From positions 32,001 through 96,000 of IMG/VR virus record IMGVR_UViG_3300023202_000142: DNA of 64,000 nucleotides; one strand, given 5' to 3'. Positions within the stretch are counted from its first letter, which is position 1; every line of letters begins with the position of its first letter. The position numbers and the translations under genes are program-made. The stretch is from a virus. Of this stretch, positions 12,521 to 51,707 are shown in pieces. The notes beneath the pieces are model-generated. The model was not told the origin of the DNA and made no database searches. It was given only the letters and a program-made list of their open reading frames with translations.

Positions 12521-12916
12521 ATGTCAGACGTGACCACAATGATCGAGAGCTTCCTCGGAGACGGCGGCCTCGCCCTGAACGAGGCGGCAAAGGCCAGCCC
12601 GGTGAGGACTAAGGTCAAAATGGCAAAAGACCTGGAGACTCGCCTCCTGAAGCCCCTCAAGAAAGAACTGAACTGCCTTGGGTGGACGGTGCCTGGAGCC
12701 GAAATCGGATTCATCAACAAGGGCGGGTTCACGCTCGACCTCAAGGTCAGCTACCCTTTTCATCCCGAGTTCCCGAAGGACCCCAAAAAGGTCGCCGGAG
12801 AACTGGAAGCGGCTGTCAAGAAGGCGCTTTCTACGCGGGGCCAGATGAAGATGGATGTGCTCAGCCGGTATGAGAAGGATCGCACCGCAAGTATCGACAT
12901 CGCGTTCTGGAAGTGA
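12521..12916 (+). CDS. hypothetical protein with N-terminal tag variant (MSDVTTMIESFLG...LNEA)
   Basis: SD AGGAG; tag-like N-terminus. Confidence 0.7.
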   Translation: MSDVTTMIESFLGDGGLALNEAAKASPVRTKVKMAKDLETRLLKPLKKELNCLGWTVPGAEIGFINKGGFTLDLKVSYPFHPEFPKDPKKVAGELEAAVKKALSTRGQMKMDVLSRYEKDRTASIDIAFWK

Positions 12917-12919
12917 TCC

Positions 12920-13162
12920 ATGAACTTGATCGACCGAATCGATGCCCTCCTGGAGATGCGGCCACGCAAGGTACGCAAACGCCTGCGTAAGGCCGGCTGC
13001 AAGGAGCTGCGCCAGAAGGGCTCCCATCTCAGGGTGAGCTGCCCGCCGGACGACCGGAAATCCACGATCCCTGTCCACAAGGGCAAGGACATCAAGAAGG
13101 GCACCCTGAAATCGATCGAGAAGGACCTCGACATCGACATCGATGGTGACGGCAGACCCTGA
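12920..13162 (+). CDS. hicA: HicA-family mRNA interferase domain with N-terminal tag MNLIDRIDALLE
   Basis: LRKAGCKELRQKGSHLRV...TIPVHKGKDIKKGTLKSI matches the HicA/YcfA signature. Confidence 0.85.
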   Translation: MNLIDRIDALLEMRPRKVRKRLRKAGCKELRQKGSHLRVSCPPDDRKSTIPVHKGKDIKKGTLKSIEKDLDIDIDGDGRP

Positions 13163-13175
13163 CGCACCTCCCGGG

Positions 13176-13211
13176 TAGACGACCCGCCTTGTCGTGTGTA
13201 GTCTGTGCACA
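13176..13211 (+). promoter_or_regulatory. promoter TAGACG-N17-TAGTCT; operator 13195-13211; leaderless ATG 13211
   Basis: operator TGTGTAGTCTGTGCACA ends on the A of ATG. Confidence 0.75.
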
Positions 13212-13990
13212 TGGCACGACCTGACATCGAAACCGTTCGAACAGTCTGTTCAGACCCTGGCTGTGAAGCCGAGTACACCGACGTCGTTCAGTACGTCTCA
13301 CCCCTGAACCATCTATGGGAGTGCTCGAAATGCCGACGCATCGGGCACACCGTCGACACCTCTGGGATCGAGATCGTCAGTGGCCCTGATGCGGTCTGGA
13401 AGCGACCGCTGTTATACCTGGACCGGCCTGAAGCCCTCCTCGCATCCGTGAGACACTTCAACAGAGCCAATGAGCCCCGCAAGGCGGACATCCTCGCGGA
13501 CCTGCTTCCCGACACCTGGCTGATCGAAAGCAACCACGCCAAACCACCCGAGGAAAGGTATCGGTGTGATTTTCCCAGACACGTCAAGGACGCCCTGGTA
13601 ATGCCGGTGCGGACAAAGTCCGGCGACACCTGGTCACTAGTCGTCTGGAGACCCAATGATGTTCTCCGTGGCGCCTATCTCGTCGACAAGGCTCCGACAC
13701 CTGAGCGCAACGAGGTCGTCGAGGCAGTTCCGCCACTGAAGAAACCATGGACGCTCACGTTCAAGCGTCCGTCGAGGAGCCCGTCACCCTACATTGAAGA
13801 ATGGCTCAACAAATACCCTAACCAGCGCGGCTGGGGCGATCATCTGGCACTAGAAAAGCACCGTGAGGCCGTCAAAGACATTCTGGAGTCCGGCGTTGAG
13901 CCCGACGGGGTTACCGGGGTCTTGCTCAGAAAATACGGAGGTGCACCGAGCCCCACAGCGATTGAGGCGTTTATCAGGGAGCTGACGTGA
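13211..13990 (+). CDS. hypothetical protein with N-terminal Cys motifs
   Basis: CSDPGC..CSKC. Confidence 0.7.
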   Translation: MARPDIETVRTVCSDPGCEAEYTDVVQYVSPLNHLWECSKCRRIGHTVDTSGIEIVSGPDAVWKRPLLYLDRPEALLASVRHFNRANEPRKADILADLLPDTWLIESNHAKPPEERYRCDFPRHVKDALVMPVRTKSGDTWSLVVWRPNDVLRGAYLVDKAPTPERNEVVEAVPPLKKPWTLTFKRPSRSPSPYIEEWLNKYPNQRGWGDHLALEKHREAVKDILESGVEPDGVTGVLLRKYGGAPSPTAIEAFIRELT

Positions 13991-15027: not shown

Positions 15028-15410
15028 ATGAAGAGCAACGAGTTGACCGAGCGAATCGATCAGTTCCTGAGTGAAGCCGGGATGCCCGTCTACTCGGACA
15101 CCCTCTGTCCGCAGAGGAGTTCGCTGAGAGGCTTTACGCGATCGAGGACTGGCTCACCAGCGCGGCGAGCGATGTGAAGGCGATCCGAAAGACGATTGAA
15201 GGGAGCCGACGGTCCGCGAAGCGAAATATCAAGCCGAATGATCCTCCGTTCAAGAAGTTCTGGGCAGGCGTCCCCGTCAAGAAAGTGTTCCAGCGGTTTG
15301 CGTTGATCGGGGCCAAAAACACCCGCGGTGACCTCAAGAAGGCCCGCGAGGCATACGATGAGCTGCTTAAGGACTTCCAGGCCACCATGAAGCACTTCAA
15401 CATCCGATGA
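15028..15410 (+). pseudogene. tagged protein (MKSNELTERIDQFLSEA...) split by a -1 frameshift near 15078-15081
   Basis: the -1 frame reads DARLLGHPLSAEEFAERLY... open to 15410 and has an upstream TGA; first frame degenerates after GCC GGG. Confidence 0.55.
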
Positions 15411-15949
15411 GCCTCATCGAAACCATAGATGTCCTCCTGGAGCGCGACGATTACTTCGACGACCCCAGTTTCGTCTGGGCCACCTTGCTCGACAACGCGT
15501 TCGACACCCCAATGCGATCGATCCGGCAATCGGTAAAGCACCACCCCTTCGCACACCGTCACGCCTTCGCCATGATGGTGCGCAGCGACGAGCACTGGGA
15601 GCGCTTCAACTACGAAGAGGATCTCATCCTTGGCGCCCTGCTTCATCTGGCAAAGAAGCACAGACCGCTCAAGAAGTCCGTCAAGGCCATCAAGAAAGAC
15701 CTGCGACTGGGGAGCAAGAGAGCTTCGAAAAGCGATGTCGAGGAGCGCACCGGCATGTCGCCCCGTGAATGGGAGCGTGAGTACGAAAAATACATCGATA
15801 AGTGGATGGACCGCGAAGACGACGGCGTGCTCCGCGAGCTATCTATCTCCCCTGACAACATTGATTCGATCGGTGACCTGGAGCCCGACCAGGCGCGCAA
15901 GGCCAGAAAGTGGATCACCGACTACCAGAAGAAACAGGGCTGGAGATGA
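15407..15949 (+). CDS. tagged hypothetical protein (MSLIETIDVLLE)
   Basis: N-terminal tag; ATGA overlap. Confidence 0.75.
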   Translation: MSLIETIDVLLERDDYFDDPSFVWATLLDNAFDTPMRSIRQSVKHHPFAHRHAFAMMVRSDEHWERFNYEEDLILGALLHLAKKHRPLKKSVKAIKKDLRLGSKRASKSDVEERTGMSPREWEREYEKYIDKWMDREDDGVLRELSISPDNIDSIGDLEPDQARKARKWITDYQKKQGWR

Positions 15950-16317
15950 ACGTTGTAGGCGAGGCTGAACGCCTTCTCAGCGAAGCAGAAGACGATCTGC
16001 CGAGTCTTGAAGACTGGATCAACCGTGACCCCTTCTCGCGGGGAAAGAAGCGCCTGCAGCGCGAGAGAAAGGCCCTGAAAAAGAAGTGGGAGCGTGAGGT
16101 ATCCCGTGATCGCGCGCGCCTTCGAGGCGCAAGAAACGTCGTCGACAAGATCGCCGGCGATATGGGGCCGGAATGGAAGGACGAGGGCTACACTGACGCC
16201 GAGGTCGAATCGACAGCGTTCGGCACTGCGCACGACATGAGACCCGACCTTCGCTGGTGGTTGATCTGGAACCAGCACCGTGAAATCCCGCTGAAGTCGA
16301 TCCCGCTTCGCTGGTGA
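15946..16317 (+). CDS. tagged hypothetical protein (MNVVGEAERLLSEA)
   Basis: ATG 15946 behind GGAG. Confidence 0.7.
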   Translation: MNVVGEAERLLSEAEDDLPSLEDWINRDPFSRGKKRLQRERKALKKKWEREVSRDRARLRGARNVVDKIAGDMGPEWKDEGYTDAEVESTAFGTAHDMRPDLRWWLIWNQHREIPLKSIPLRW

Positions 16318-16902
16318 CTACAGCGGTCGCATCCCCATCGACACCCTGAACTGCGAGATGAACTGCTTCACTGTGGGGATTTTCGCTCCGGTCTGATTGC
16401 GCAGCACCATCGCCGCCTTCATGAGGTCGTCAGCCTTGATGTGCTTCCTGGCCTTCTTGACGACCGTCTGCGGCCACAGTCGATTGGACTGGTCACTGGG
16501 GTGCCACGGGACGCCGCTGACGGTCTCCCACAGCAGGCTGGAGTTCTGGACGATGTTGCGGCCGGTCAGCAGGCGCTTGGCCTTCGATACCTGGACAACC
16601 TTCGCTGACGACAGCTTGATCGAGTCAGCGTGCCAGATCACTTCCTCGGGGTAGACGACCTGGGGATCCTGCTTCGTGGTGAAGATGACCGCGAAATTCC
16701 GGCTCGTCGCACGGCCGAGCTTGGTGGTTGCTACGCCGCCTACGAACTTGCCGCCCTCAGCCACCGCGTAGACCCCGTTCACGATGCTCGATTTATCTAG
16801 TCGTCGGGAGGACGCGATGGCCTCAGCTCCGACCTGGTCGGAAAAGTGGACGTAACGGACCTGGCGCGCTTCAAGCAAGATGTCAACGGCCTCAACGAGC
16901 AT
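16318..16902 (-). CDS. tagged putative ADP-ribosyltransferase-fold protein (MLVEAVDILLEA)
   Basis: YVHFS..GAEAI.SS..L...GVYA...EEV resembles H-Y-[DE] ART toxins; start could be TTG 16923. Confidence 0.55.
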   Translation of the reverse strand: MLVEAVDILLEARQVRYVHFSDQVGAEAIASSRRLDKSSIVNGVYAVAEGGKFVGGVATTKLGRATSRNFAVIFTTKQDPQVVYPEEVIWHADSIKLSSAKVVQVSKAKRLLTGRNIVQNSSLLWETVSGVPWHPSDQSNRLWPQTVVKKARKHIKADDLMKAAMVLRNQTGAKIPTVKQFISQFRVSMGMRPL

Positions 16903-16980
16903 GTCGGCGATTCTCTCCGACAAGCCCCGGAGACGCAACAGGTTGCTGTCTGCTGTCCCGTTGGGTACGTTCGGGGGACA

Positions 16981-17013
16981 GAGAAGACCATGCAAGGGAG
17001 AAGACCATGCAAG
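16981..17013. repeat. 17-bp tandem duplication GAGAAGACCATGCAAG(G) x2
   Basis: exact copies at 16981-16996 and 16998-17013, each with an ATG. Confidence 0.9.
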
Positions 17014-17633
17014 TACGCGACAAGACGTCCGTAACGATCGACATCAGCGTCGAAGCTGGTGCTGGAGAAGACCTCGAAGTGGACATCCTGGAGGACAAGA
17101 ACCAGGAGCCGAGGATCGAAGCAGGCAAAGTTGTCGAGACTGGACTGCCTCCGCTCGATACCCTGGGGCGGGTAGCCAAGGTGCTCCGAAATGAGGAGGC
17201 CATGGCATTTCAGCGAGTCAGGCCGGGCACTTCCACCACCTTCGAGGTCGAGCCAGGTGACTCGATCCTGTTGACCCGCAACGGGAACAAACGAGTGCAC
17301 GTGCACCAGCTTGGGGAACATCAGTTCCTCGTTACGCGCGATGAACTCAAGCGTGTCATCGGCATGGTTGCCGAACTGAAGCCCGACGCCCTACAGCTAC
17401 TCCTGAAGCTCATCGAGCCCGCGGAGTTCTCGATGGAGCTACTGCGCTTCGCCATCGAGCAGGCGCGCGAAGGTGTCGAGCCCGACGAGCCCGACGAAGA
17501 ACGCTATGCTCGTTTCGCGCGCGAAGCGTTGCAGCGATCAGGTGGAGAGAACAACATTCTCCACAGCATGGCCAAGAGCATCGATGAAGCATCGAAACGC
17601 GATCCGCTGGAGCCGCCTAGCTTCGACGAGTAG
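17007..17633 (+). CDS. hypothetical protein
   Basis: start at second duplicated ATG. Confidence 0.7.
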   Translation: MQVRDKTSVTIDISVEAGAGEDLEVDILEDKNQEPRIEAGKVVETGLPPLDTLGRVAKVLRNEEAMAFQRVRPGTSTTFEVEPGDSILLTRNGNKRVHVHQLGEHQFLVTRDELKRVIGMVAELKPDALQLLLKLIEPAEFSMELLRFAIEQAREGVEPDEPDEERYARFAREALQRSGGENNILHSMAKSIDEASKRDPLEPPSFDE

Positions 17634-17671
17634 GGGTCGATTCGATCGGCCGCTGGGGGTAGGATGCCAGC

Positions 17672-18394
17672 ATGAATATTATCGAACACATCGACGCGCT
17701 GCTTGAAGCCAAAGTTCGCTGGAAGTGGCCGACCAAGAAGCAGCTCGTTGATGAGTTCGAGACCGAGCCCTGGATCCGATCGCTGTTCGGCGGTGACATT
17801 TCCTGGGTTCGAGACGGGACCTACGACGACAGTTCCGCGAAGAGGTTTTTCCTCGATCACCTCAAAAAGGTCTCAAAGACCAAGGTGTTCAAGAAACCAC
17901 CGCGCGGGATCGAGTTCCACAAGGCCGACTCGATCGACAAGCTGGCGCAGAAAACCGAGTACATGGGCAAGGACGTCCAGTCATTAGCTGATGCGATGAA
18001 ACGCGGCGGCAGTCTCCCCATGCCGATCCTCGTCAAGTCCGGTGGCACCTACAAAATGCTCGGTGGTCGCACCAGGTTCGGTGTCGCATCGATTTTAGGA
18101 ACCCCCGTGAAAGCAATTGTCGTTGACCTCAAGAGGCTCGCCGGTGCCCTTCAGGAATGGGCTCGCGATGAGTTCATTCACAACCCGAAAGGGATCATAG
18201 CGAAGGCGCCTGTGACTGCCGAGGAGCGCGAGGAGTGGTACGACTGGGTCTGGGGCGGCCAACGCGGCCCGATGCCCCTGGAGGGGCTAGAGAAGCGCTG
18301 GGACCTCAGTTTCTCCAAGGTCTGGGCGAGCCTGTTCGCACGCCAGTTCGACAAGATGGATCTCAAAGAGACGTTCAAAAGCAAGAGGGGCTGA
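17672..18394 (+). CDS. tagged ParB/Srx-like domain protein (MNIIEHIDALLEA)
   Basis: LPMPILVK..GTYKMLGGRTRFGVASILGTPVKAIVV. Confidence 0.7.
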   Translation: MNIIEHIDALLEAKVRWKWPTKKQLVDEFETEPWIRSLFGGDISWVRDGTYDDSSAKRFFLDHLKKVSKTKVFKKPPRGIEFHKADSIDKLAQKTEYMGKDVQSLADAMKRGGSLPMPILVKSGGTYKMLGGRTRFGVASILGTPVKAIVVDLKRLAGALQEWARDEFIHNPKGIIAKAPVTAEEREEWYDWVWGGQRGPMPLEGLEKRWDLSFSKVWASLFARQFDKMDLKETFKSKRG

Positions 18395-18783
18395 TGCTGG
18401 TTGAAGACGTAGATCGTCTGCTGGAGGCAAGGGAATACGCTTACGGGGCCCAGAACAGACCTGTCGCAACAGCTCAGGTGCCTGATGGCTGGATCGACAC
18501 CCGCAAGGATCGCCGCTTCAGGCATGGTGTGGTTGTCTACAAGAAGCCGCTGAGCGATCGCGAGGTCAGAAACTTCCAGCTCACCCCGTTGATTCCGCGC
18601 CGCGACCTTGCAAAACAGATCGCCCAAGAGATCGACTACCCCGAAGCCTACGTCGAGATCTACGATGACGATCCCCGGGAATTCGCGTCGATGCTACAGA
18701 TGCTCGACCTGCCAGATGCCAGAGCGATCGAAGGGGACAATGACCGGAAATTGCATGCCATGATCATCAAAGAGCTGAAATGA
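18394..18783 (+). CDS. tagged protein with DarA C-terminal-like domain (MLVEDVDRLLEA)
   Basis: YG.QNRP....VPDG...HGVVVYKKPLSDREVRNFQLTP. Confidence 0.55.
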   Translation: MLVEDVDRLLEAREYAYGAQNRPVATAQVPDGWIDTRKDRRFRHGVVVYKKPLSDREVRNFQLTPLIPRRDLAKQIAQEIDYPEAYVEIYDDDPREFASMLQMLDLPDARAIEGDNDRKLHAMIIKELK

Positions 18784-25058: not shown

Positions 25059-25664
25059 ATGGCTATCCGGTACAAAACTCGACGGGTGGAATACGGGCAC
25101 TACGAAATCCGTGCCTACGACGGCCGCAAGCGCATCGGTCGCATCGTGATCATGAACCTGGGGAAGCTGGCAAGCGTTGAGGCCGTCCGGGTCGCTGACG
25201 AATACCAGCGTCAAGGGATCGCCACTGAACTCTACTTGATGGCGGCCAAGGTCTCCTGCAAAGAATTCGGTAAGCCGCTTGCGTCAGCGAACTGGGGATC
25301 TATCCCCGCCGCCAAAGGGGTGTGGCGAAAGCTTGTATCGAAGGGCAAGGCGAAGCGCTACACTCAGAAGAAACACCACAAGGACATACAGGGTTACCTG
25401 ATTCCCTGCAGGGGCGTCGAGATCCCCGACGGTGTCGTCATCGAGTCGCTCGTCGAGTACATCGATCACCTCCTAGAAGCTGAGGGCTCCCTGGTAGACA
25501 TGGCACGTGACCGTGCGCGCGGGGATGCTCCGGCGGGGTCAGGCAAGGCCGACTACTTGCCCGATGAGCCCGAGGAAGAGCCCGAGGAAGAGCCCGAGGA
25601 AGAGCCCGCCCAGCCCGGCACCGATGCGACCACCGCTGGTGTCCCGGGTGTCGGTGTCGACTAA
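25059..25664 (+). CDS. GNAT-fold acetyltransferase with internal tag (LVEYIDHLLEA) and acidic tail
   Basis: VRVADEYQRQGIATELY acetyl-CoA motif A. Confidence 0.75.
   Translation: MAIRYKTRRVEYGHYEIRAYDGRKRIGRIVIMNLGKLASVEAVRVADEYQRQGIATELYLMAAKVSCKEFGKPLASANWGSIPAAKGVWRKLVSKGKAKRYTQKKHHKDIQGYLIPCRGVEIPDGVVIESLVEYIDHLLEAEGSLVDMARDRARGDAPAGSGKADYLPDEPEEEPEEEPEEEPAQPGTDATTAGVPGVGVD
25566..25607 (+). repeat. 12-bp tandem repeat GAGCCCGAGGAA, about 3.5 copies (EPEE repeats)
   Basis: direct reading. Confidence 0.9.
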
Positions 25665-26622: not shown

Positions 26623-27078
26623 ATGACAGAAGAAACCGTCAATCTCGCTGACATTGTCCAGTTCGCCTCGCAGCACTGGGTAGAACTGGGCACCGGGGCC
26701 GCAGCGGTGACCGCTACAATCTTCCTGGTCGAACTGGGTAAGGGCTGGTTGAAGCTGTGGGTCGCGGATCGTGGCTACTCCGAGCAGTTCGAGGAGAACG
26801 CCGTCCGAACCCTGGTCTTTGCGCTGTCGGTGCCAGTCGCCTGGCTCCTCGAATTCGGCAAGACCTGGGAGTCGTTCTTCGGTAGACCCATGGGCACCGG
26901 CGCCGAGCTGTTCGTTGGCGGAGCCATCACAGCGATCATTAGCATCGTGGTTTACCTGTTCATCCACCGCATTGAACCGATCGAGGTAGCCAGACTGAAG
27001 CTCTACAAGTGGCTGAAGGTCAGCCCCGGCGAAATCGAGAAGGCCCGAAACAACCGACGCGACCAAAAAGGTTCTTGA
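26623..27078 (+). CDS. membrane protein with about 3 TM segments, possible holin
   Basis: hydrophobic segments and basic C-terminus. Confidence 0.5.
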   Translation: MTEETVNLADIVQFASQHWVELGTGAAAVTATIFLVELGKGWLKLWVADRGYSEQFEENAVRTLVFALSVPVAWLLEFGKTWESFFGRPMGTGAELFVGGAITAIISIVVYLFIHRIEPIEVARLKLYKWLKVSPGEIEKARNNRRDQKGS

Positions 27079-27104
27079 CCGCATCGCGACCCCGTCGCTA
27101 CAGT
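27075..27104 (+). promoter_or_regulatory. promoter of tRNA array 1: TTGACC-N18-TACAGT
   Basis: hexamers directly after the upstream stop codon. Confidence 0.7.
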
Positions 27105-27116
27105 CGTCGTCACGGG

Positions 27117-27224
27117 ATGCGACCGGCCACCTTGGAACGAAAACATGATGCAATCATTGCCCAGTCAGATTTGCTCCTCGCTGCTTCCGAGCAGCCACTG
27201 GAGGCGTCTGCGCTGAGCGACTGA
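27117..27224 (+). CDS. putative leader peptide 1, 35 aa (MRPATLERKHDAIIAQSDLLLAASEQPLEASALSD)
   Basis: ATG about 6 nt after predicted +1; Leu/Ser/Gln/Pro-rich distal half; stop about 21 nt before terminator. Confidence 0.6.
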   Translation: MRPATLERKHDAIIAQSDLLLAASEQPLEASALSD

Positions 27225-27276
27225 ATACATCGTTCAAGCCGAAGAAGCCTCCAGTCACTGACTGGGGGCTTTTTTC
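27197..27276 (+). terminator. attenuator 1: terminator GCCTCCAGT-cactg-ACTGGGGGC plus U-tract; antiterminator ACTGGAGGC at 27197-27205
   Basis: 27197-27205 is a perfect 9-nt complement of terminator 5' arm 27247-27255. Confidence 0.75.
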
Positions 27277-27281
27277 GTTTG

Positions 27282-27303
27282 GGTCTTTGACAACTGAAGA
27301 TGA
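27282..27303 (+). promoter_or_regulatory. boxA-like antitermination element GGTCTTTGACAACTGAAGATGA
   Basis: resembles rrn spacer boxA (TCTTTGAAAACT); near-identical copy at 29184-29205. Confidence 0.6.
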
Positions 27304-27308
27304 TGTAA

Positions 27309-27382
27309 GCCCGGGTAGGCTAACTGGCAACGCCGCGGTCCTAAGAAGGCCGTGAGTGTGGGTTCGACTCCCACCCCGGGTA
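27309..27382 (+). tRNA. tRNA-Leu(AAG), short variable loop
   Basis: cloverleaf; CGGTC-ctAAGaa-GGCCG; A73. Confidence 0.8.
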
Positions 27383-27384
27383 CT

Positions 27385-27456
27385 GCTCCCGTACCCCAAC
27401 GGCAGAGGAGCGGCCTTAAAAGCCGTCGAGTCCGGGTTCGATCCCCGGCGGGAGCA
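27385..27456 (+). tRNA. tRNA-Leu(TAA), short variable loop
   Basis: GCGGC-ctTAAaa-GCCGT; TTCGA T-loop. Confidence 0.85.
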
Positions 27457-27458
27457 TG

Positions 27459-27531
27459 GCGCCCATAGGCCAACAGGAAGAGCCGCGTGGTTCAAACCCC
27501 GTGGGTCCAGGTTCGATCCCTGGTGGGCGCA
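27459..27531 (+). tRNA. tRNA-Leu(CAA), bulged anticodon stem, short variable loop
   Basis: acceptor GCGCCCA/TGGGCGC; loop ttCAAac. Confidence 0.7.
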
Positions 27532-27535
27532 TGAT

Positions 27536-27621
27536 GGAGGGTTGGCAGAGCGGTAATGCATCGGTCTTGAAAACCGACGAGTCCCTGACGGGGCGCGAGG
27601 GTTCGATCCCCTCACCCTCCT
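27536..27621 (+). tRNA. tRNA-Ser(TGA)
   Basis: TCGGT-ctTGAaa-ACCGA; long variable arm. Confidence 0.92.
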
Positions 27622-27625
27622 CTGA

Positions 27626-27697
27626 CTGGGTGTGGGCCAGTGGTTGGCCACTTGCTTTGGGAGCAAGGTTACGGGGGTTCGAATCCCTCCACCCAGA
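27626..27697 (+). tRNA. tRNA-Pro(TGG)
   Basis: CTTGC-ttTGGga-GCAAG. Confidence 0.9.
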
Positions 27698-27770
27698 TGA
27701 CCTGTAGCTCAATTGGCAGAGCACTGCACTTTGACTGCAGTGGTTCGAGGTTCGAATCCTCGCAGGTCAA
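27698..27770 (+). tRNA. tRNA-Gln(TTG)
   Basis: CTGCA-ctTTGac-TGCAG; U1-A72. Confidence 0.92.
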
Positions 27771-27773
27771 TGC

Positions 27774-27844
27774 GGCGACGTGTGCGAGTGGTTAGCGCTC
27801 GGATTGCAAACCCGAGGACGCGGGTTCGAGTCCCGCCGTCGCCT
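27774..27844 (+). tRNA. tRNA-Cys(GCA)
   Basis: loop ttGCAaa; U73. Confidence 0.9.
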
Positions 27845-27845
27845 T

Positions 27846-27930
27846 GGAGCAGTGGCAGAGTGGCAATGCAGCGGGTTGCTAACCCGTAGGTCGTTTCGAC
27901 GGCCCGGGGGTTCGATCCCCTCCTGCTCCG
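27846..27930 (+). tRNA. tRNA-Ser(GCT)
   Basis: loop ttGCTaa; long variable arm; G73. Confidence 0.92.
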
Positions 27931-28000
27931 TATCTCACTGAAATCGAGCTGGAATCAGCTCGGAGCTGGCTGCTAGGGTCGGGTAACCCTGGAGGCTCAG

Positions 28001-28273
28001 ATGACTCTGACAGAACACGTGGACCTTCTCCTCGAAGCGCGCATGTCGTCGCGGGAGCAGAAGCTAGTCGGTAACATGTTGGTGGGCATGGAGATGGAAG
28101 AATACGGTGGCAACACCGAGCGCTTCTACCGCTGGATCGAGCGGAAGACGGATGAATTCCTGGAGGAACTCTACGCAAGGCTCGAAGGTAACGTGCGCGA
28201 AGCCGACCGGAAGAGGCTAACATCGCTAAAGGCCAGGGAGTACATTGCATTGCACAACATGGCGCTAACCTAG
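28001..28273 (+). CDS. tagged hypothetical protein (MTLTEHVDLLLEA)
   Basis: GGAGG SD; tag. Confidence 0.75.
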   Translation: MTLTEHVDLLLEARMSSREQKLVGNMLVGMEMEEYGGNTERFYRWIERKTDEFLEELYARLEGNVREADRKRLTSLKAREYIALHNMALT

Positions 28274-28282
28274 CCCGCCTCG

Positions 28283-28501
28283 CTAACCGAGGTCTCCGGG
28301 CTCAGCCCCGTCGAGAACTCCGAGGACCAGTCGACGGTATTCGTCTCGGGGGATCTCGATGGCGTCGGCGATGGCATCAAGGATGTCTCCGGGGGTGCAG
28401 CCTGCTCGAAGACGACTGACGATGATAGCACCTCCGACCACGAGTCGGTCGGGATTGACGTACATCTCAAGGGTTGGTTCAGAATCTTGTGCATTGGGCA
28501 T
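28283..28501 (-). CDS. hypothetical protein
   Basis: SD AGGAG on the - strand. Confidence 0.6.
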   Translation of the reverse strand: MPNAQDSEPTLEMYVNPDRLVVGGAIIVSRLRAGCTPGDILDAIADAIEIPRDEYRRLVLGVLDGAEPGDLG

Positions 28502-28569
28502 CTCCTATCCCCTCCAACTGCGTTTTGATAGTCTGAGGCTGTCCGTAGCTCGACGCAACAGGAGACGCA

Positions 28570-28980
28570 ATGAGAGACATTCTGAACCGCTTACTGAGTA
28601 GACTGCCCCACCAGTGGGCTCGTGATGCCTCGACCGGCCAACACGCCCTCCTGGAGGCTGTGAGCTTCGAATTGCAGCGCATCTATGATCGAATCGGCGG
28701 TCGGCCCGATCAAATCGTGTTCGAACGCGTCGATCTGATGAACCCCTCACCCGACGATGTCCTGGTGTTGACCATGAAGGTCCCGACATCATTCGGGATC
28801 ACGAACTGGATCGACCAGGCGCAACGGATGAGTGATGACCTCAAGGATGCCCTGGGGGTTCGTGAAATCATCGTACTGCCAGACATCGTACACATCGAAA
28901 ACCTGGGTAATCTCGACGCCAACACCGCAAAAGAGCTTGGGAAGCTCAGGAATGTCATCGCGGCACTGAAGGGTGCTTGA
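28570..28980 (+). CDS. hypothetical protein
   Basis: SD AGGAG. Confidence 0.65.
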   Translation: MRDILNRLLSRLPHQWARDASTGQHALLEAVSFELQRIYDRIGGRPDQIVFERVDLMNPSPDDVLVLTMKVPTSFGITNWIDQAQRMSDDLKDALGVREIIVLPDIVHIENLGNLDANTAKELGKLRNVIAALKGA

Positions 28981-29005: not shown

Positions 29006-29018
29006 TCGTTTTGAAGCA

Positions 29019-29175: not shown

Positions 29176-29183
29176 CGTTCTGG

Positions 29184-31703: not shown

Positions 31704-32138
31704 ATGGCGAACCTGACCACAACCCTGATGGAGAACTTCCTCACGGAACGTGCTGACGAACCCAGTTGGATCGATGCGCTGTGGGATTTCGAGCGAAAGC
31801 TCGCCGAATACCTCCGCGGCTCGACAGACAGCAAGTACGCCAAGAAGATGAGGCGCAAGCCCAAGATCGGGCGCGCCGGAAGAGGAAAGGGTGCTTCCCT
31901 GGAGTACACTTTCGACGATGGCAAGATCACGTTCACGGCCAGTGTCGTTTCGGACAAGGACAAGATCCGCCTGGCATACTCGGGCAACCATCCCGGCCTG
32001 AAGCGTCGTACCGTGAAGAGTGCCTACAAGGGCCCATTTGAGGTCGACATCACCGAGCCCTGGAAACTGAAAGGGAAGATGAACGGTCTACTGGGCGCCG
32101 CACTCGTCGACGATGAAGGAAAATCTCAACTACGATGA
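31704..32138 (+). CDS. hypothetical protein with tag variant (MANLTTTLMENFLTE)
   Basis: GGAG SD. Confidence 0.7.
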   Translation: MANLTTTLMENFLTERADEPSWIDALWDFERKLAEYLRGSTDSKYAKKMRRKPKIGRAGRGKGASLEYTFDDGKITFTASVVSDKDKIRLAYSGNHPGLKRRTVKSAYKGPFEVDITEPWKLKGKMNGLLGAALVDDEGKSQLR

Positions 32139-40540: not shown

Positions 40541-41028
40541 TTCCCCTCCATCGCAATAAACTCGGCTCGAAGCGACAGGCTCTCTTCATCAAGCTCGATG
40601 CCTCGGTACATATGGCGAAGCTGCTTCTCAGCAGCGTCTGCCCACACCCTGTTGGGCTTGCCGCTCGGTGATTTTCCGCTGCGCCTGTATGAGATCATGG
40701 CCGATTCGATCTTGGTCCTGTAACGCTTATTGAATGTGATAGCCAGCGCCTCATCTTCGCCCAGTTCAAGGATCTGACAGACCCCCTGGAACTTAGCCAG
40801 GACGCAGGGCTCGCCCTTCCTGATGTCGTCGAAACCTATGAATTTCCAGATAAAGAACTTCGTCAGGCTGTTCAGGTCATCGATGCGGTAGCGAACCAGA
40901 CCGCCGCTCGTTTTTGGTGTCCCAGTCTTGTTGCGCAGGGGTTCGAATTTCTCGGCGAGCCAGGCGTTGAAATCCTCGGCGACGCGCTCTCGATGAAGCC
41001 GGCGCTTTCTAGCGTGTTGGTTTTCCAT
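40537..41028 (-). CDS. hypothetical protein, near-leaderless
   Basis: TTGACG-N16-TACACT promoter; operator 41028-41044 abuts ATG. Confidence 0.7.
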   Translation of the reverse strand: MENQHARKRRLHRERVAEDFNAWLAEKFEPLRNKTGTPKTSGGLVRYRIDDLNSLTKFFIWKFIGFDDIRKGEPCVLAKFQGVCQILELGEDEALAITFNKRYRTKIESAMISYRRSGKSPSGKPNRVWADAAEKQLRHMYRGIELDEESLSLRAEFIAMEGK

Positions 41029-41104
41029 GTGCACGCAGTGTACATCGGCCACCCCTTCCGTCAATCCCTGGAGTGTCCTACGATTCCCGGAACCGGAGGT
41101 TCGC

Positions 41105-41788
41105 ATGCCCTACAAGACGACGTCAGACATTCCCCAGCCCGTCCAGGACGCACTTCCAGCGAAGGCCCAGGACATGTGGATGAAGGTCTACAACTCGGCG
41201 AGCAAGCAATACGATGGCGACAAGAGCCGATCTGCGGCAACAGCCTGGGCCGCAGTGAAGCGCAAGTACAAGAAAGGGGAGAACGGAGATTGGGCTCTCA
41301 AGGAAGGACTCATTGAGGCCGTGGACCGCCTCCTGGGCGTAACCAGCGCGCTGCTGCTGCTCTTGCTGCTGTCGGGGTGTGCCTCGGCGCCAGAGCAGAC
41401 TGAATGCCCTGGGGTGCCCCCTGAAGCCGCTTACAGCTTCGAGCTTGTTCGGGTTGTCGACGGTGACACCATTGAGGTCCTCGTGGACATTGGTTTCAAC
41501 ACCTACCGCAAAGTAAGCGCCCGCCTGGACGGAGTCGATACACCTGAGATCTATGGCGTCAAGAAGTGGATGGACGACGCCAAGACGGCCTACACCGAGG
41601 AGTACGCCAGGGGTGCCGCCGCCTCGGAGTTCACGAAGTCGTGGCTTCGGTCTGAATGCCCCTGCACCATTGAGGTCGACGGTGCCGGCAAGTACGGGCG
41701 GTGGATTATCGTGGTTTACTCAGCGAACGGCGCATCGCTTAACGATGCTCTGGTTGAAAGCGGCAACGCTGTCATCGCGGAATACTGA
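41105..41788 (+). CDS. ChaB domain, tag, lipoprotein signal (LSGC) and thermonuclease (SNase) domain in one ORF
   Basis: MPYKTTSDIP...LP..AQ..W..VYNSA...AW.AVKRKY (ChaB); RVVDGDTI...RLDGVDTPE...GKYGRWI (SNase). Confidence 0.85.
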   Translation: MPYKTTSDIPQPVQDALPAKAQDMWMKVYNSASKQYDGDKSRSAATAWAAVKRKYKKGENGDWALKEGLIEAVDRLLGVTSALLLLLLLSGCASAPEQTECPGVPPEAAYSFELVRVVDGDTIEVLVDIGFNTYRKVSARLDGVDTPEIYGVKKWMDDAKTAYTEEYARGAAASEFTKSWLRSECPCTIEVDGAGKYGRWIIVVYSANGASLNDALVESGNAVIAEY

Positions 41789-43990: not shown

Positions 43991-44242
43991 ATGGCAGACA
44001 AGGCCAAAACAGCGATCAAAGAACTGATGGACACCGACTACAAAAAGCCGGACGCGCACTTCAAGATGGTGCAACTGCTCAAGGGTCTGGCCGCGGCGTC
44101 GAAAAAAGACCAGCAGGCCAAGCTGTTCCTCGACGGTGTCAGCGATGCGCTGACGACGGTAGGTAAGACGGTGCTGAAGGCGTCCGAGAAGGAAGAGTCT
44201 GCCGGTCTTACCGGCGACCTCATCGAGAACTACGTCGGTTGA
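43991..44242 (+). CDS. hypothetical protein with weak C-terminal tag (LIENYVG)
   Basis: AGGAG SD. Confidence 0.7.
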   Translation: MADKAKTAIKELMDTDYKKPDAHFKMVQLLKGLAAASKKDQQAKLFLDGVSDALTTVGKTVLKASEKEESAGLTGDLIENYVG

Positions 44243-46107: not shown

Positions 46108-46533
46108 CTACCTGGAGCGCAGGGGGTCAAGAAAGTCACGGATCAGAATTGCAGGGCTGCCGCTGCAGGGGTACCTGCCCTGCTCCCAGTTGACGACGGT
46201 CTGTTCGGTAACTCCGCAAGCCAAGGCGAAGCTCTTGAGTGTATCGTCGCGCTGAATGCGCACCCATCGAACCGCGATCGGCGCCAGTGGATTTTCCTTC
46301 AGCATCGGTGAGAGGTCGAGGTCCATGTCGATGTGCTCGATGTACTCACGTACGCCCCAGGGCTTCAGAGCACTGTGGTGCCATCTTGTGCACTGATTAC
46401 TCAGGATTTCACCCCTGCTGTAAACATCCGCCCAGACGCGACCTACTGCTGACACGTAGAACGGGCCATAGTATGTGGTTTCGCCATCGAAAATGTACGC
46501 TTGACCGTCTCGCTCAGCGATTCTGAAACGCAT
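46108..46533 (-). CDS. protein with C-terminal XRE-type HTH
   Basis: TLKSFALACGVTEQTVVNWEQGR. Confidence 0.75.
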   Translation of the reverse strand: MRFRIAERDGQAYIFDGETTYYGPFYVSAVGRVWADVYSRGEILSNQCTRWHHSALKPWGVREYIEHIDMDLDLSPMLKENPLAPIAVRWVRIQRDDTLKSFALACGVTEQTVVNWEQGRYPCSGSPAILIRDFLDPLRSR

Positions 46534-46594
46534 GGCACCTGAACCTGAAATGACCTAACCTGACCGCAGTTCAGAGGTTAACGGAGAGATCGGC

Positions 46595-46888
46595 GTGGAC
46601 ACAGACAAAAATTCGGCGCGTAAGGAAGCTCTGGGGTTTGAGAGGGGATTCGGCCGCACCATTGGACCAAGCCCCCTCGTGGAGAGGGTTGACGCCCTCC
46701 TGGAGAACTTCACGGTCGTCTCGAAGGTTGCGGTGAACATTCCCAAGGCGGTGCGAACAGGTCAGACGCTTGACCCTGTCGATGACGTCCGGGCTGACTA
46801 CACCAAGTACCGCAAGCTGCACTTCTCGAAACGGAAGTGCCCGCCAGAGTGCCCCTTCTGCAAGAGAGCCAAGAAGAATGCTCGTTGA
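46595..46888 (+). CDS. hypothetical protein with internal tag (LVERVDALLEN)
   Basis: GTG start behind GGAG. Confidence 0.6.
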   Translation: MDTDKNSARKEALGFERGFGRTIGPSPLVERVDALLENFTVVSKVAVNIPKAVRTGQTLDPVDDVRADYTKYRKLHFSKRKCPPECPFCKRAKKNAR

Positions 46889-50107: not shown

Positions 50108-50110
50108 TCC

Positions 50111-50968
50111 GTGTTCCTCGCTGAGAGTTACGCCCTCGACCAGTTACCTTCGCTCGGCTCGCGCATGCGCTTGTCGAGCGAGGGTGTTTCTGGGGAGTTC
50201 GTGTACGCGGGTTTCACTGAGTCCGGGGACATCGTTGCTGTACCACTGGTGCCGTTAGTCAGGATGTCTTCCTGCCAGCCTGTGGCCTGCCCTGGCGCCA
50301 AGGTTCACTACGTCGAGGATGAGGGTAGCCATTTCGACGCCAGGCGTCTCCTGAGCCTTCTGGAGGCGACTGAGTATGAGTCCATTTGGCCCAACAGAGA
50401 TGGTTCTGGCGGCTTCCTTCTGGGTCGTCTCGCCGTAAAGCCCCGAACAGGAGATCTCCTGGAGATTGCTGGCAAACCGATGGTGTTCTGTGGCAATTAT
50501 CGGTCGAAGTGGGTGCTCGCGACACAAGGGGCTCACACCTTTCAGCCCCTTGGGACCGTGACCGCCGAGGGAACCTCCTGGAATATCGCTGTCTTGCCTG
50601 AGCGAGACCACGGATTGCTTTGTGGCCTCATTGAGTCAGACACGGCATCCCGGATTTTTCGAAAAACCACCGATCGTCCTTTCCCTGGATCTCGCGTGCG
50701 CATGCGGGGCGTCGATGGCATGTACTTGCGTTGGGACGGCCGGTTCGGCTTGCACCATCAGGTTGCTTTCCCGATTGAAGAGTCGGCTCGATCGACCATT
50801 GCGACCTTCGATGTGGATCGAATCGTCGAGGTTGACGACACGTCGTATGCGGTTTGCTGGGTGTCGATCAATCAGAACATGAACCTCTTCGAACTACCGG
50901 ATCCTGTGCAGACCCGGCTTGCGCTGCAGATCGCTGACACCCCGTCTTCCTATCGGAGGCATTTGTGA
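50111..50968 (+). CDS. hypothetical protein
   Basis: 285 aa ORF. Confidence 0.65.
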   Translation: MFLAESYALDQLPSLGSRMRLSSEGVSGEFVYAGFTESGDIVAVPLVPLVRMSSCQPVACPGAKVHYVEDEGSHFDARRLLSLLEATEYESIWPNRDGSGGFLLGRLAVKPRTGDLLEIAGKPMVFCGNYRSKWVLATQGAHTFQPLGTVTAEGTSWNIAVLPERDHGLLCGLIESDTASRIFRKTTDRPFPGSRVRMRGVDGMYLRWDGRFGLHHQVAFPIEESARSTIATFDVDRIVEVDDTSYAVCWVSINQNMNLFELPDPVQTRLALQIADTPSSYRRHL

Positions 50969-51456
50969 GACTCCTTGTTCTGTTGTCGGCTCTGCTGCTT
51001 GTCAGTTGCGCTACCACCAAGAAATCGGACCCCCTGGACAAGCCCCAGGTGCAGCTCACCGAACTCAAGGCGCCCCCGGCACCCCTGGAGGACGAAGTTG
51101 TCCCCGTAGACCCCGGCGGTCTCACGGCCGAACAGGCAGCGTGCGTACGGAGCCTGGGCCTTGACCCCGGCGGCTTCGTGATGTCAGAGCAGAAACTCGT
51201 GTCGCTTTCCGAGTTGCGCCTATACGCCGAACAGACCTACTCTGACGGCCTCGCCAACGGTGCGATCTGCACGGCACATCTCGATGCCACCTGGAACCAG
51301 CTCAAGAAGGCCGACAAACTTCTCGATGACATTCACGAGCGCGAGAACTCCTGGTGGAATCGAAACAAGGGGACGATTACCTTCGCCGCAGGGTTCATTG
51401 TGGGCGCCGGCTCGTCGATCCTCATCGTGTACGGCGTCAGCCAGGCAACGGAGTAA
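50965..51456 (+). CDS. lipoprotein with C-terminal TM segment, u-spanin-like architecture
   Basis: LLVSC lipobox; C-terminal FAAGFIVGAGSSILIVYGV. Confidence 0.6.
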   Translation: MRLLVLLSALLLVSCATTKKSDPLDKPQVQLTELKAPPAPLEDEVVPVDPGGLTAEQAACVRSLGLDPGGFVMSEQKLVSLSELRLYAEQTYSDGLANGAICTAHLDATWNQLKKADKLLDDIHERENSWWNRNKGTITFAAGFIVGAGSSILIVYGVSQATE

Positions 51457-51458
51457 TC

Positions 51459-51707
51459 ATGAGTGAGCAGATGTCCGAAGATGTGAGTCGTGCCGCAGGT
51501 CACCTCGAAAAGGTGAAGTACGCGACAAAGAACCTGGAGAACGAACTCCGAAACATCGATCGCGGTCGTAACGTGCAGCGGCACAAGCGTAATGCGATGA
51601 GCTTCGCCAGGGAGATCATTCAGAACGCCGAAAAAACGCTGACTGAAGTGGGTGGCATCCAGGAGGAGTCCACGGCGATCTCTCGCATCGATGATTTCCT
51701 TGGCTAG
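51459..51707 (+). CDS. coiled-coil protein with C-terminal tag (ISRIDDFLG)
   Basis: ATG 51459 behind GGAG. Confidence 0.65.
   Translation: MSEQMSEDVSRAAGHLEKVKYATKNLENELRNIDRGRNVQRHKRNAMSFAREIIQNAEKTLTEVGGIQEESTAISRIDDFLG

What the first reader, a model, noticed from the sequence alone, without database searches (positions are those of the whole stretch)
12521..51707. About 19 unrelated proteins share a short L-x-E-x-(I/V)-D-x-L-L-E-A tag: candidate capsid-targeting and cleavage signal for an injected cargo set
Seen at N-termini: MNLIDRIDALLE (12920), LTERIDQFLSEA (15028), MSLIETIDVLLE (15407), VVGEAERLLSEA (15946), MLVEAVDILLEA (16902-), MNIIEHIDALLEA (17672), MLVEDVDRLLEA (18394), MTLTEHVDLLLEA (28001), VQDHIDHFFGEA (30663), IQDHINAFIGES (30941), IVEHVSALLMEA (32135), ILNRIDNVLDEA (48995), with weaker forms at 12521 and 31704. 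Seen internally or C-terminally: LVEYIDHLLEA (25059), LIEAVDRLLG (41105), LVERVDALLEN (46595), ISRIDDFLG (51459), LIENYVG (43991). The rest of these proteins is unrelated and the DNA is not repeated, so the signal is at protein level. Established: T4 internal proteins carry a roughly 10-aa capsid-targeting sequence removed by prohead protease gp21 after Glu. Inference: a different amphipathic-helix tag marks a large effector payload (RNase, ART, GNATs, ParB-like, DarA-like, ChaB) for packaging and injection.
Basis: partly seen in the sequence, partly recalled or inferred. Interest (0 to 1): 0.82.

Follow-up and report, generated by a model that had tools for sequence, protein, structure and literature searches.

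The report
Capsid-loading leader on ~20 phage proteins
An uncultured, very divergent T4-like phage puts the same 12-14-residue leader, ending in the cut site of its head protease, on about 20 unrelated and mostly basic proteins (one a HicA RNase toxin), so they are probably loaded into the capsid and delivered with the DNA as T4 does with its internal proteins; nothing has been measured.

Summary
A position matrix for the leader M-x-[LIV]-[IVT]-[ED]-x-[IV]-D-x-[LF]-L-(x)-E-A gives 20 hits in the called proteins of the 185-kb genome, against 0.3 in shuffled proteins. Seventeen lie within four codons of a start codon. Conservation is in the protein only: third codon positions and upstream DNA are random.

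The phage has a T4 gp20 portal, a gp21-type (S77) prohead protease fused to a coiled-coil scaffold, and a gp23 capsid protein. The predicted capsid maturation site is L-N-E|A, and L-x-E is kept there in 28 relatives. Almost every leader ends in hydrophobic-x-E. One tagged, extremely basic 99-residue protein sits in the gp67/gp68 slot just before the protease. Tagged proteins are basic (14 of 21 with pI above 8, against 33 of 239) and have no membrane segments.

In the tagged HicA toxin the leader is exactly the extension beyond solved HicA structures. Its eight closest homologues carry different leaders with the same ending.

Best reading (about 0.65): a T4-type capsid-targeting propeptide with a new consensus and a large cargo set. 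Packaging, cleavage and injection are untested.

This scan has noted similar leader families in other T4-like phages.

The parts
12920..13162 (+). Tagged HicA toxin (80 aa). Leader is residues 1-12, ending L-L-E. The HicA fold starts at residue 13.
   Evidence: Pfam HicA_toxin 2e-16, residues 16-72. PDB HicAs 9svk and 1whz align from residue 13. AF2 model: leader helix 3-11, then the HicA fold.
15407..15949 (+). Tagged 180-aa protein, no known family
   Evidence: (23.8 bits)
15946..16317 (+). Tagged 123-aa protein; weaker leader ending L-S-E|A
   Evidence: 17.1 bits; leave-one-out 7.3
16318..16902 (-). Tagged 194-aa protein. It is the only tagged gene on the minus strand.
   Evidence: 26.8 bits. 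Chosen by the coding-potential caller.
17672..18394 (+). Tagged 240-aa protein carrying the strongest leader. It is an ORFan with a weak ParB-N-like lead.
   Evidence: 32.9 bits. No homologue in 5.8 billion clusters. Atlas feature hits 0.92-0.94 to viral clusters, some with ParB_N.
18394..18783 (+). Tagged 129-aa protein with a DarA_C domain beginning right after the leader
   Evidence: Pfam DarA_C 3.8e-7, residues 14-66. phrog_1926 'released from the phage upon host infection' 5e-11.
28001..28273 (+). Tagged 90-aa protein beside the tRNA arrays
   Evidence: 28.1 bits
30663..30944 (+). Tagged 93-aa protein; leader variant ending F-G-E|A-R
   Evidence: 23.9 bits
30941..31186 (+). Tagged 81-aa protein with a TTG start; leader variant ending I-G-E|S
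   Evidence: 24.3 bits
32135..32707 (+). Tagged 190-aa protein; leader ends L-M-E|A
   Evidence: 27.3 bits
48995..50107 (+). Tagged 370-aa acidic protein; leader ends L-D-E|A. No family found.
   Evidence: (19.4 bits; leave-one-out 5.1)
12521..12916 (+). Weak leader on a 131-aa basic protein. The usual Glu is Asp; a second L-N-E|A lies at residue 21.
31704..32138 (+). Weak leader on a 144-aa basic protein, ending L-T-E|R at residue 15
15028..15177 (+). Leader on a 49-codon ORF; the gene itself is uncertain
   Evidence: 25.2 bits. Not called by the coding-potential model.
25059..25664 (+). GNAT-like 201-aa protein with a strong internal copy of the leader at residues 130-142 (window 25446-25484), followed by an acidic tail
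   Evidence: 22.6 bits. No start codon nearby. Weak GNAT hits.
46595..46888 (+). 97-aa ORF with the leader at residues 27-39 (window 46673-46711). Parts on the same contig but outside the 64-kb window cannot be entered as rows. In genome coordinates (window + 32000) they are:
- tagged DUF5710 protein, 3194-4507
- portal, 108391-110139
- tagged basic 99-aa head-module protein, 111937-112236
- S77 protease fused to scaffold, 112236-113942
- gp23 capsid protein, 113991-115511
- tagged genes at 155900-156148, 169264-169692 (weak), 170480-170758, 170751-171086, 171088-172272 (J domain), and 185174 to the contig end
   Evidence: (17.6 bits). For the parts outside the window.

Best explanation
The leader is a T4-type capsid-targeting propeptide.

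Shown:
- About 20 unrelated proteins start with an acidic amphipathic stretch, predicted helical in the one model made (the tagged HicA). Hydrophobic residues sit at positions 3, 4, 7, 10 and 11, and acidic residues at 5, 8 and 12. It ends in hydrophobic-x-Glu followed by Ala, Ser, Arg or Met.
- The phage has a gp21-family S77 prohead protease fused to its scaffold.
- The same hydrophobic-x-Glu rule marks the predicted cut in its gp23 capsid protein and many sites in the scaffold.
- One tagged protein is encoded inside the head-core gene block.

Inferred:
- While the prohead core assembles, the leader docks the protein on the scaffold.
- Once the shell closes, the protease cuts after the Glu and the leader peptide leaves.
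- The mostly basic mature proteins stay with the packaged DNA and are ejected into the next host.
- There they act at time zero: a HicA RNase against host mRNA, a DarA_C-domain protein and others against defence or for take-over.
For: Enrichment and position:
- 20 hits against 0.33 in shuffles, and 17 of 20 at starts. The family ranks first in a blind N-terminal search.
- The signal is at protein level only.

Head genes:
- T4 gp20 portal, S77 protease plus scaffold, and gp23.
- Gene order is portal, a 470-aa charged protein, the tagged basic 99-aa protein, protease-scaffold, capsid protein. This parallels T4's 20-67-68-21-22-23.
- The capsid site L-N-E|A aligns with a hydrophobic-x-E column in 28 relatives.
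- The scaffold holds L-L-A-E|A, L-L-E-E|A, L-L-E|A and L-G-E|S.
- T4 leaders read from NC_000866 follow the same plan. IPII and IPIII end I-A-E|A-R/S. gp67, gp68, gp21 and gp22 start with short leaders ending L/I-x-E. gp23 has F-L-T-E|A.
- The T4 literature reports 10-19-residue N-terminal targeting sequences removed by gp21 (PMC9026906, PMC3012670, PMC5694885).

Leader and cargo properties:
- 19 of 21 leaders have hydrophobic-x-E at residues 11-16.
- Tagged proteins are basic: 14 of 21 against 33 of 239 have pI above 8, Fisher p = 3e-7. None has a membrane-like segment.
- Known domains begin right after the leader: HicA at 13-16, DarA_C at 14, DnaJ at 21.
- The DarA_C protein matches a PHROG annotated as released from the phage on infection.

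HicA subfamily:
- Only the 8 closest of 147 HicA representatives have an acidic leader ending hydrophobic-x-E directly before the domain. Their leader sequences differ from one another, and a ninth starts exactly at the predicted mature end.
Against: - There are no virion proteomics, no cleavage data and no transcript timing. The phage is known only from a metagenome.
- No late promoter could be recognised. T4's TATAAATA is absent, and no shared upstream motif was seen by eye in the 13 gaps before structural genes. Co-expression with head genes is therefore untested.
- Most tagged genes lie in the block of small, presumably early genes.
- The leader has no sequence similarity to T4's targeting sequence beyond the general plan.
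- Relatives at 50% capsid identity or less do not carry this leader.
- Two strong copies are internal, which a purely N-terminal signal does not explain.
- Twenty cargo species is far more than documented for T4.
Confidence: 0.65

Rival explanations
1. The leader is a docking helix for some other common partner that has nothing to do with the capsid. Candidates are a phage or host hub protein, a chaperone (one tagged protein has a J domain), or an adaptor for timed degradation. It would mark a regulon of early proteins at the protein level.
For: - Most tagged genes lie among small, presumably early genes.
- None except the gene at genome 3194 sits directly behind a promoter box.
- No late promoter was found.
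- The leader is absent from more distant relatives that keep the same head genes.
Against: - It does not explain why the leader ends in the protease's hydrophobic-x-E|A rule.
- It does not explain why a tagged protein sits in the head-core gene slot and keeps its leader in relatives.
- It does not explain why the tagged set is strongly basic.
- It does not explain why a DarA_C 'released on infection' domain is tagged.
- T4's internal-protein genes also lie among early genes next to the tRNA cluster.
Confidence: 0.15
2. The leader is a recognition sequence for a modifying enzyme.
Against: - No radical-SAM domain is found anywhere in the 185-kb genome at E up to 0.01. The same search found the family in all 14 control genomes.
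- The leader has no Cys, Ser/Thr or Gly-rich core of the kind such enzymes modify.
Confidence: 0.03
3. The leader is only a pro-sequence that is cut off to activate the protein, keeping HicA for example inactive, with no role in addressing the protein to the capsid.
For: - The tagged HicA has no recognisable HicB antitoxin anywhere in the genome.
- The leader is exactly the extension beyond the HicA fold.
Against: - In T4, gp21 is described as acting on prohead core and head proteins (PMC9026906), so cleavage by its homologue would probably imply prior entry. This is an inference.
- Most tagged proteins are not toxins.
- The conserved first ten residues are more than a cleavage site needs.
Confidence: 0.07
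4. The proteins are diverged paralogues, or the motif is a by-product of a DNA or RNA element at the gene starts.
For: Several tagged genes are adjacent: 15407 to 18783, 30663 to 32707, and genome 170480 to 172272.
Against: - Lengths run from 49 to 437 aa, with different Pfam domains: HicA, DarA_C, DnaJ, DUF5710.
- Third codon positions and upstream DNA are random.
- None of the 16 upstream stretches printed shows the GGAGGTAGC ribosome-site tag that earlier notes describe in this genome.
Confidence: 0.02

Closest known systems
Phage T4 capsid targeting sequence (CTS) on internal proteins IPI, IPII, IPIII and Alt, removed by prohead protease gp21 (Mullaney and Black 1996, as reviewed in PMC9026906, PMC3012670, PMC5694885)
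   Same: - An N-terminal leader of 10-19 residues on otherwise unrelated, mostly basic proteins.
- It ends in hydrophobic-x-Glu followed by Ala.
- The phage has a gp21-family protease, a scaffold core and a gp23 capsid protein cut by the same rule.
- The cargo genes lie among early-type genes around the tRNA cluster.
   Different: - There is no sequence similarity to MKTYQEFIAE. The consensus here is longer and has an invariant-looking I/V-D-x-L-L core.
- About 20 carriers here, against a handful in T4.
- The cargo includes a HicA RNase, a DarA_C domain and a J-domain protein.
- The protease and scaffold are one fused gene.
- Packaging and cleavage are experimentally shown in T4 and untested here.
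T4 prohead core proteins gp67, gp68, gp22 and gp21, with their short N-terminal L/I-x-E leaders
   Same: - The tagged basic 99-aa protein occupies the gp67/gp68 position between portal and protease.
- The T4 core proteins also begin with short leaders ending L/I-x-E.
   Different: No detectable homology to gp67 or gp68: Pfam and PHROGs give no hit. The protein is far more basic.
Phage P1 Dar system: DarA, and DarB with a 30-residue N-terminal packaging signal (PMC9024508, PMC12810830)
   Same: - An N-terminal signal addresses anti-defence cargo to the capsid.
- One tagged protein here carries the DarA_C domain.
   Different: - P1's signal is longer and unrelated in sequence.
- In P1, loading is stepwise and depends on DarA and Hdf.
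- P1 is not a T4-type phage, and the signal was not reported to end in a gp21-type site.
Propeptides of giant phages phiKZ, 201phi2-1 and SPN3US, cut by gp21-related proteases at S/A-x-E (PMC5694885, PMC10052503)
   Same: A related protease cuts after Glu and processes ejection proteins.
   Different: Those propeptides are mostly longer than 100 residues and do not form one shared short leader family.

Membership tests
T4-type capsid targeting sequence (CTS) system | A short leader of 10-19 residues at the extreme N-terminus of otherwise unrelated proteins | tested here: met
   17 of 20 matrix hits lie within 4 codons of a start. Leaders are 11-16 residues long.
T4-type capsid targeting sequence (CTS) system | The leader ends in the prohead protease motif, hydrophobic (L/I)-x-Glu, with cleavage after Glu | tested here: met
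   As a sequence pattern, 19 of 21 leaders have [LIVFM]-x-E at residues 11-16. Actual cleavage cannot be tested with these tools.
T4-type capsid targeting sequence (CTS) system | The phage encodes a gp21-family (Peptidase S77) prohead protease and a scaffolding core | tested here: met
   Peptidase_S77 4.5e-14 and phrog_207 5e-44 on a 568-aa protease plus coiled-coil protein.
T4-type capsid targeting sequence (CTS) system | The same cleavage rule operates on the major capsid protein and the scaffold | tested here: met
   The predicted gp23 site L-N-E|A at 77/78 lies in a hydrophobic-x-E column conserved in 28 relatives. It stands at a similar distance before the conserved P-N-L-I-A block as T4's known F-L-T-E|A site. 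The scaffold has many L-L-(x)-E|A sites.
T4-type capsid targeting sequence (CTS) system | Sequence similarity of the leader to the T4 CTS | tested here: not met
   Only the general plan is shared: an amphipathic stretch ending hydrophobic-x-E|A. T4 leaders were read. This argues against common descent of the leaders, not against the same mechanism.
T4-type capsid targeting sequence (CTS) system | Tagged proteins are present, processed, in the virion and are ejected into the host | not testable with these tools
   The phage is uncultured. No proteome is available.
T4-type capsid targeting sequence (CTS) system | The leader is sufficient to carry a foreign protein into the prohead | not testable with these tools
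   This needs a fusion experiment.
HicA mRNA interferase toxin (for the protein at 12920-13162) | HicA fold with the conserved Gly-Ser-His catalytic motif | tested here: met
   Pfam 2e-16. Alignment to 9svk and 1whz. G34 and H36 are invariant in 42 homologues. AF2 mean pLDDT is 85.
HicAB toxin-antitoxin pair | A cognate HicB antitoxin gene | tested here: not met
   No PF15919 or PF05534 match in the whole genome at E up to 0.1. The flanking genes have no Pfam hit.
   No PF04055 match in the genome. The family was found in all 14 control genomes.

The most novel reading that the evidence does not exclude
The phage uses the leader to turn an orphan toxin-antitoxin toxin into an injected weapon.
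- HicA, with no HicB gene in the genome, would be made harmless in the producing cell by being sequestered in proheads through its leader.
- It would then be trimmed to a canonical HicA by the head protease and delivered with the DNA to destroy host mRNA at the moment of infection.
- More generally, the leader would be a plug-in address that lets this lineage load any protein whose gene acquires a leader upstream of its start. In HicA the original start Met appears to be kept right after the cut site.
Probability: 0.2. Interest if true: 0.75.

Novelty: new variant of a known kind. Interest (0 to 1): 0.55.

Why it matters
If the reading holds, three things follow.
- The T4 trick of addressing proteins to the capsid would not be a T-even curiosity. 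It would be a general, evolvable device of the wider T4 superfamily, with lineage-specific leader sequences.
- One phage could devote about 8% of its genes to cargo delivered at time zero. That gives a sequence-only way to predict the injected proteome of uncultured phages.
- It names new candidate first-strike effectors: a HicA RNase without antitoxin, a DarA_C protein and several ORFans. It also offers a second, unrelated targeting peptide for engineering protein delivery by phage capsids.

If it fails, the leader still defines a protein-level regulon of about 20 genes whose common partner is unknown.

Tried and rejected
Relatives and spread
- DNA similarity to 50,697 cultured-phage records found nothing. 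The capsid protein is at most 34% identical to any of them.
The closest relatives, with capsid proteins 58-77% identical (the Logan ones, P0002 and P0005-P0007, among them), could not be fetched.
- Metagenome records cannot be searched whole. For the closest relatives reached, L089 and L090, only the 21.5-kb and 12.6-kb stretches fetched around the head genes were read.
- Two exact degenerate DNA patterns for the leader gave 0 hits in IMG/VR. A leader profile found one weak hit in five long IMG/VR relatives.
- An iterated matrix for the small leader family of relative G001 drifted into noise. Only its four obvious members are kept.

Homologues of tagged proteins
- Homologue searches for the 240-aa and the DarA_C proteins found only themselves.
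- The Atlas search for the 370-aa protein gave nothing usable.

Expression timing
- T4's TATAAATA late promoter is absent, and no shared motif was seen by eye in the 13 gaps upstream of structural genes.
- The sigma-70 scan was at chance level.
- Distances to the promoter boxes noted earlier in this genome are uninformative.

Other ideas
- The idea that the leader copies a conserved scaffold motif (S-x-E-[ED]-V-D-x-L-[LIV]-E) was tested. The motif is conserved across the clade but scores only 8.7 bits in this phage, within the shuffled range, so it is kept as a lead only.
- Rejected as leaders: the copy at 41306, which is a lipoprotein signal peptide, and the two C-terminal items.
It was redone from coordinates.


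Full report
CONTEXT

The window is bases 32001-96000 of a single 185,324-bp contig, 59% G+C. CheckV rates it about 90% complete. In this report, genome coordinate = window coordinate + 32000.

The contig has a T4-type portal (Pfam Portal_T4, 1.7e-52). It also has a gp21-family prohead protease (Peptidase_S77 4.5e-14; phrog_207 5e-44) fused to a long coiled-coil scaffold, and a gp23 capsid protein (3.6e-63). Nothing in 50,697 cultured-phage records matches at the DNA level, and the capsid protein is at most 34% identical to any of them. In metagenomes the capsid protein has thousands of relatives, the closest at 58-77% identity. This is therefore an uncultured, far-diverged member of the T4 superfamily.

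Yes.

- A loose regular expression and then a 13-column matrix built from 15 copies were run over all six frames of the whole genome.
- In the 259 called proteins there are 20 hits of 13 bits or more. Thirty shuffled proteomes give a mean of 0.33 and a maximum of 2. Seventeen of the 20 hits lie within four codons of a candidate start. Leave-one-out scores remain at 12.8 bits or more for 13 of the 15 seeds.
- A blind all-against-all comparison of N-terminal 10-mers ranks this family first, with up to 10 partner genes. The same statistic on internal windows never exceeds 2.
- The conservation is in the protein. Codon positions 1+2 are 58% identical between copies and position 3 is 33%. Identical residues share a codon 40% of the time, in the range codon usage predicts (0.28-0.60 by residue). 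The 30 nt upstream are 28% identical.

The consensus is M-x-[LIV]-[IVT]-[ED]-x-[IV]-D-x-[LF]-L-E-A-[RK]. A one-residue-longer variant ends [FL]-[LFI]-x-E-[AS].

Beyond the window there are further copies at genome 3194, 111937, 155900, 170480, 170751, 171088 and 185174 (the last cut by the contig end). A weak one lies at 169264.

- Two are strong: 25446-25484 in a GNAT-like protein (22.6 bits) and 46673-46711 (17.6 bits).
- The one at 41306 overlaps an in-frame GTG followed by a textbook lipoprotein signal peptide with a lipobox, in front of a staphylococcal-nuclease domain. It is probably chance.
- The two C-terminal ones do not match.

WHAT THE LEADER LOOKS LIKE

- Nineteen of 21 leaders contain hydrophobic-x-Glu at residues 11-16. 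The next residue is usually Ala, and otherwise Ser, Arg, Lys, Met, Glu or Gly.
- Fourteen of 21 tagged proteins have pI above 8, against 33 of 239 other called proteins (odds ratio 12.5, Fisher p = 3e-7).
- After removal of the leader, 16 of the 21 have pI above 8, while the median of all called proteins is 5.3.
- None has a membrane-like hydrophobic stretch.

LINK TO THE HEAD

The gene order is portal (genome 108391-110139), a 470-aa protein with an acidic then a very basic half, a tagged 99-aa protein of pI 10.9 (111937-112236, overlapping the previous stop), protease-scaffold (112236-113942), and capsid protein (113991-115511). T4, read from NC_000866, has 20-67-68-21-22-23, so the tagged protein sits in the gp67/gp68 slot.

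Its orthologues in the two closest relatives I could fetch (L089 and L090, capsid identity 59% and 57%) keep a leader of the same kind followed by a run of basic residues.

The capsid protein has H-L-N-E|A at residues 77/78, 23 residues before the conserved P-N-L-I-A block. In an alignment of 28 relatives this column is always hydrophobic-x-E. In T4 the known cut F-L-T-E|A at residue 65 stands at a similar distance before the same block.

The scaffold half of the protease gene contains L-L-A-E|A, L-L-E-E|A, L-L-E|A, L-G-E|S and others.

T4's own leaders, read by tool, follow the same plan. IPII and IPIII end I-A-E|A-R/S after 10 residues and IPI ends I-T-E|A after 19. gp67, gp68, gp21 and gp22 all begin with short stretches ending L/I-x-E. 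The internal proteins have pI 8.9-9.5.

The literature states that these 10-19-residue propeptides target the proteins to the scaffolding core and are removed by gp21. Residues 4 and 7 matter for targeting and residues 8 and 10 for processing (PMC9026906; also PMC3012670, PMC5694885, PMC10229621). An N-terminal 30-residue packaging signal is also known for P1 DarB (PMC9024508).

THE CARGO

Most tagged proteins have no family, and two that I searched are ORFans. Those with a domain have it starting right after the leader:
- HicA toxin, 12920-13162.
- DarA_C, 18394-18783. This protein also matches phrog_1926, annotated as released from the phage upon host infection.
- A J domain from residue 21 (genome 171088).
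- Three DUF5710 repeats (genome 3194).
- The 240-aa protein with the best leader has only a language-model lead to ParB-N-like viral clusters.

HicA is the clearest case.
- Two solved HicA toxins of 63 and 70 residues align from residue 13 of the phage protein, the residue after L-L-E.
- An AlphaFold model (mean pLDDT 85) shows a lower-confidence helix at residues 3-11 in front of the normal HicA fold.
- In a full HMMER scan of 1.84 billion representatives, 73 of 147 HicA hits start within 6 residues of the domain. Only the 8 closest have an acidic leader of 10-23 residues ending hydrophobic-x-E directly before a conserved M-S-A-R.
- Those leader sequences differ from one another. One of them is nearly this phage's consensus, and a ninth homologue begins exactly at M-S-A-R.
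- The retained Met after the Glu suggests the leader was added upstream of the original start.
- One of these homologues is on record on contigs of up to 181,927 bp, the same longest-contig length as for a capsid relative at 49% identity.
- No HicB antitoxin family is detectable in the genome.

SPREAD

The exact leader is rare.
- Two degenerate DNA patterns have no match in IMG/VR.
- Eighty IMG/VR loci around related capsid genes show almost no hits.
- A leader profile finds one weak hit in five long relatives.
- One complete relative (G001, capsid 48% identical) instead has four small basic proteins sharing a different leader, M-F-x-x-L-[IV]-x-x-[ILC]-R. They are unrelated to each other beyond it.

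This fits lineage-specific leaders, but the sample is small.

RIVALS

- DNA or RNA element: excluded. None of the 16 upstream stretches printed carries the GGAGGTAGC ribosome-site tag that earlier notes describe in this genome.
- Paralogy: excluded by the different domains and the 49-437-aa length range.
- Secretion signal: does not fit an acidic leader with no hydrophobic core.
- Another common partner, or a pure pro-sequence: cannot be excluded. These explain less, namely the protease-type ending, the head-module member, the basic cargo and the DarA_C domain.

Expression timing could not be judged. T4's late promoter is absent and I found no replacement.

COMPARISON AND VERDICT

It works like the T4 capsid targeting sequence. 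The sequence-level defining features are met (N-terminal, short, protease-type ending, S77 protease, same rule in capsid protein and scaffold). Similarity to the T4 leader itself is not met, and the experimental features (virion presence, cleavage, sufficiency) are untestable here.

I file it as a new variant of a known kind: a new consensus, a protease-scaffold fusion, about 20 carriers, and enzyme and toxin cargo. Confidence in the capsid-targeting reading is about 0.65.

Earlier notes of this scan report comparable leader families in several other uncultured T4-like phages. I did not test those.

NOT DONE

- Metagenome records could not be searched whole. The leader repertoires of the closest relatives therefore remain unread.

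Noticed in passing
window 41027-41788: One ORF joins a ChaB domain (residues 36-90) to a staphylococcal-nuclease domain (166-252). Between them an in-frame GTG (about 41321) opens a classic lipoprotein signal peptide ending in a lipobox (L-S-G-C). The nuclease may therefore be made separately as a lipoprotein from a nested start.
   Followed up: partly
L089 7400-7425: The orthologue of the tagged 99-aa head-module protein has no ATG, GTG or TTG near its leader. It overlaps the last codons of the upstream charged-protein gene in another frame. Possible causes are a non-canonical start, a frameshift or an assembly error.
   Followed up: partly
genome 110528-111940 (same contig, beyond the window's end): A 470-aa protein lies between portal and tagged protein. 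It has a poly-Asp/Glu half and a poly-Lys/Arg half and several L-L-E|G and L-F-E|A sites. Counterparts with similar acidic and basic runs, but in the opposite order, stand in the same position in L089 (387 aa) and L090 (233 aa). It has no family and is a candidate head-core or internal protein.
   Followed up: partly
genome 113600-113680 (scaffold, residues about 462-474), and the scaffolds of L010-L099: The motif S-x-E-[ED]-V-D-x-L-[LIV]-[ED] recurs in 22 of 24 scaffolds of the clade, about 60-105 residues from the C-terminus. It resembles the second half of the leader. The matrix score is significant in only a few relatives and is 8.7 bits in this phage.
   Followed up: yes
genome 113991-114020 and alignment A1: Most capsid proteins of the clade begin M-(x)-E-A-R (a few have E-M-R, E-R-R or D-A-R, and three lack it), echoing the E-A-R that follows the cut in many leaders. 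This could be a second processing or docking site at the very N-terminus.
   Followed up: no
window 43991-44242 and 51354-51707: Two unrelated small proteins end in the same C-terminal pentapeptide pattern, [DE]-[DN]-[FY]-[LV]-G-stop. No other ORF in the genome does.
   Followed up: partly
G001 (IMG/VR relative) 41221-41439(-), 46196-46741, 169981-170220, 183366-183572: Four small basic proteins share a different N-terminal leader, M-F-x-x-L-[IV]-x-x-[ILC]-R, and nothing else. This may be that lineage's own targeting leader.
   Followed up: partly
proteins P0129, P0131, P0135: Homologues of the tagged HicA are fused to a domain whose conserved blocks look ParB/Srx-like to me (not checked against Pfam). 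The HicA is N-terminal with its own leader in P0129 and P0135, and C-terminal in P0131.
   Followed up: no
window 27000-32700, compared with T4 NC_000866 65416-73878: In T4 the ipII/ipIII and ipI genes flank the tRNA cluster. Here five tagged genes (28001-32707) lie within and just after the two tRNA arrays.
   Followed up: no
whole genome: Two other recurrent N-terminal patterns appear: M-T-x-E-E-I-A-E-like acidic starts (6-7 genes) and zinc-ribbon C-P-x-C-G starts (5-7 genes).
   Followed up: no
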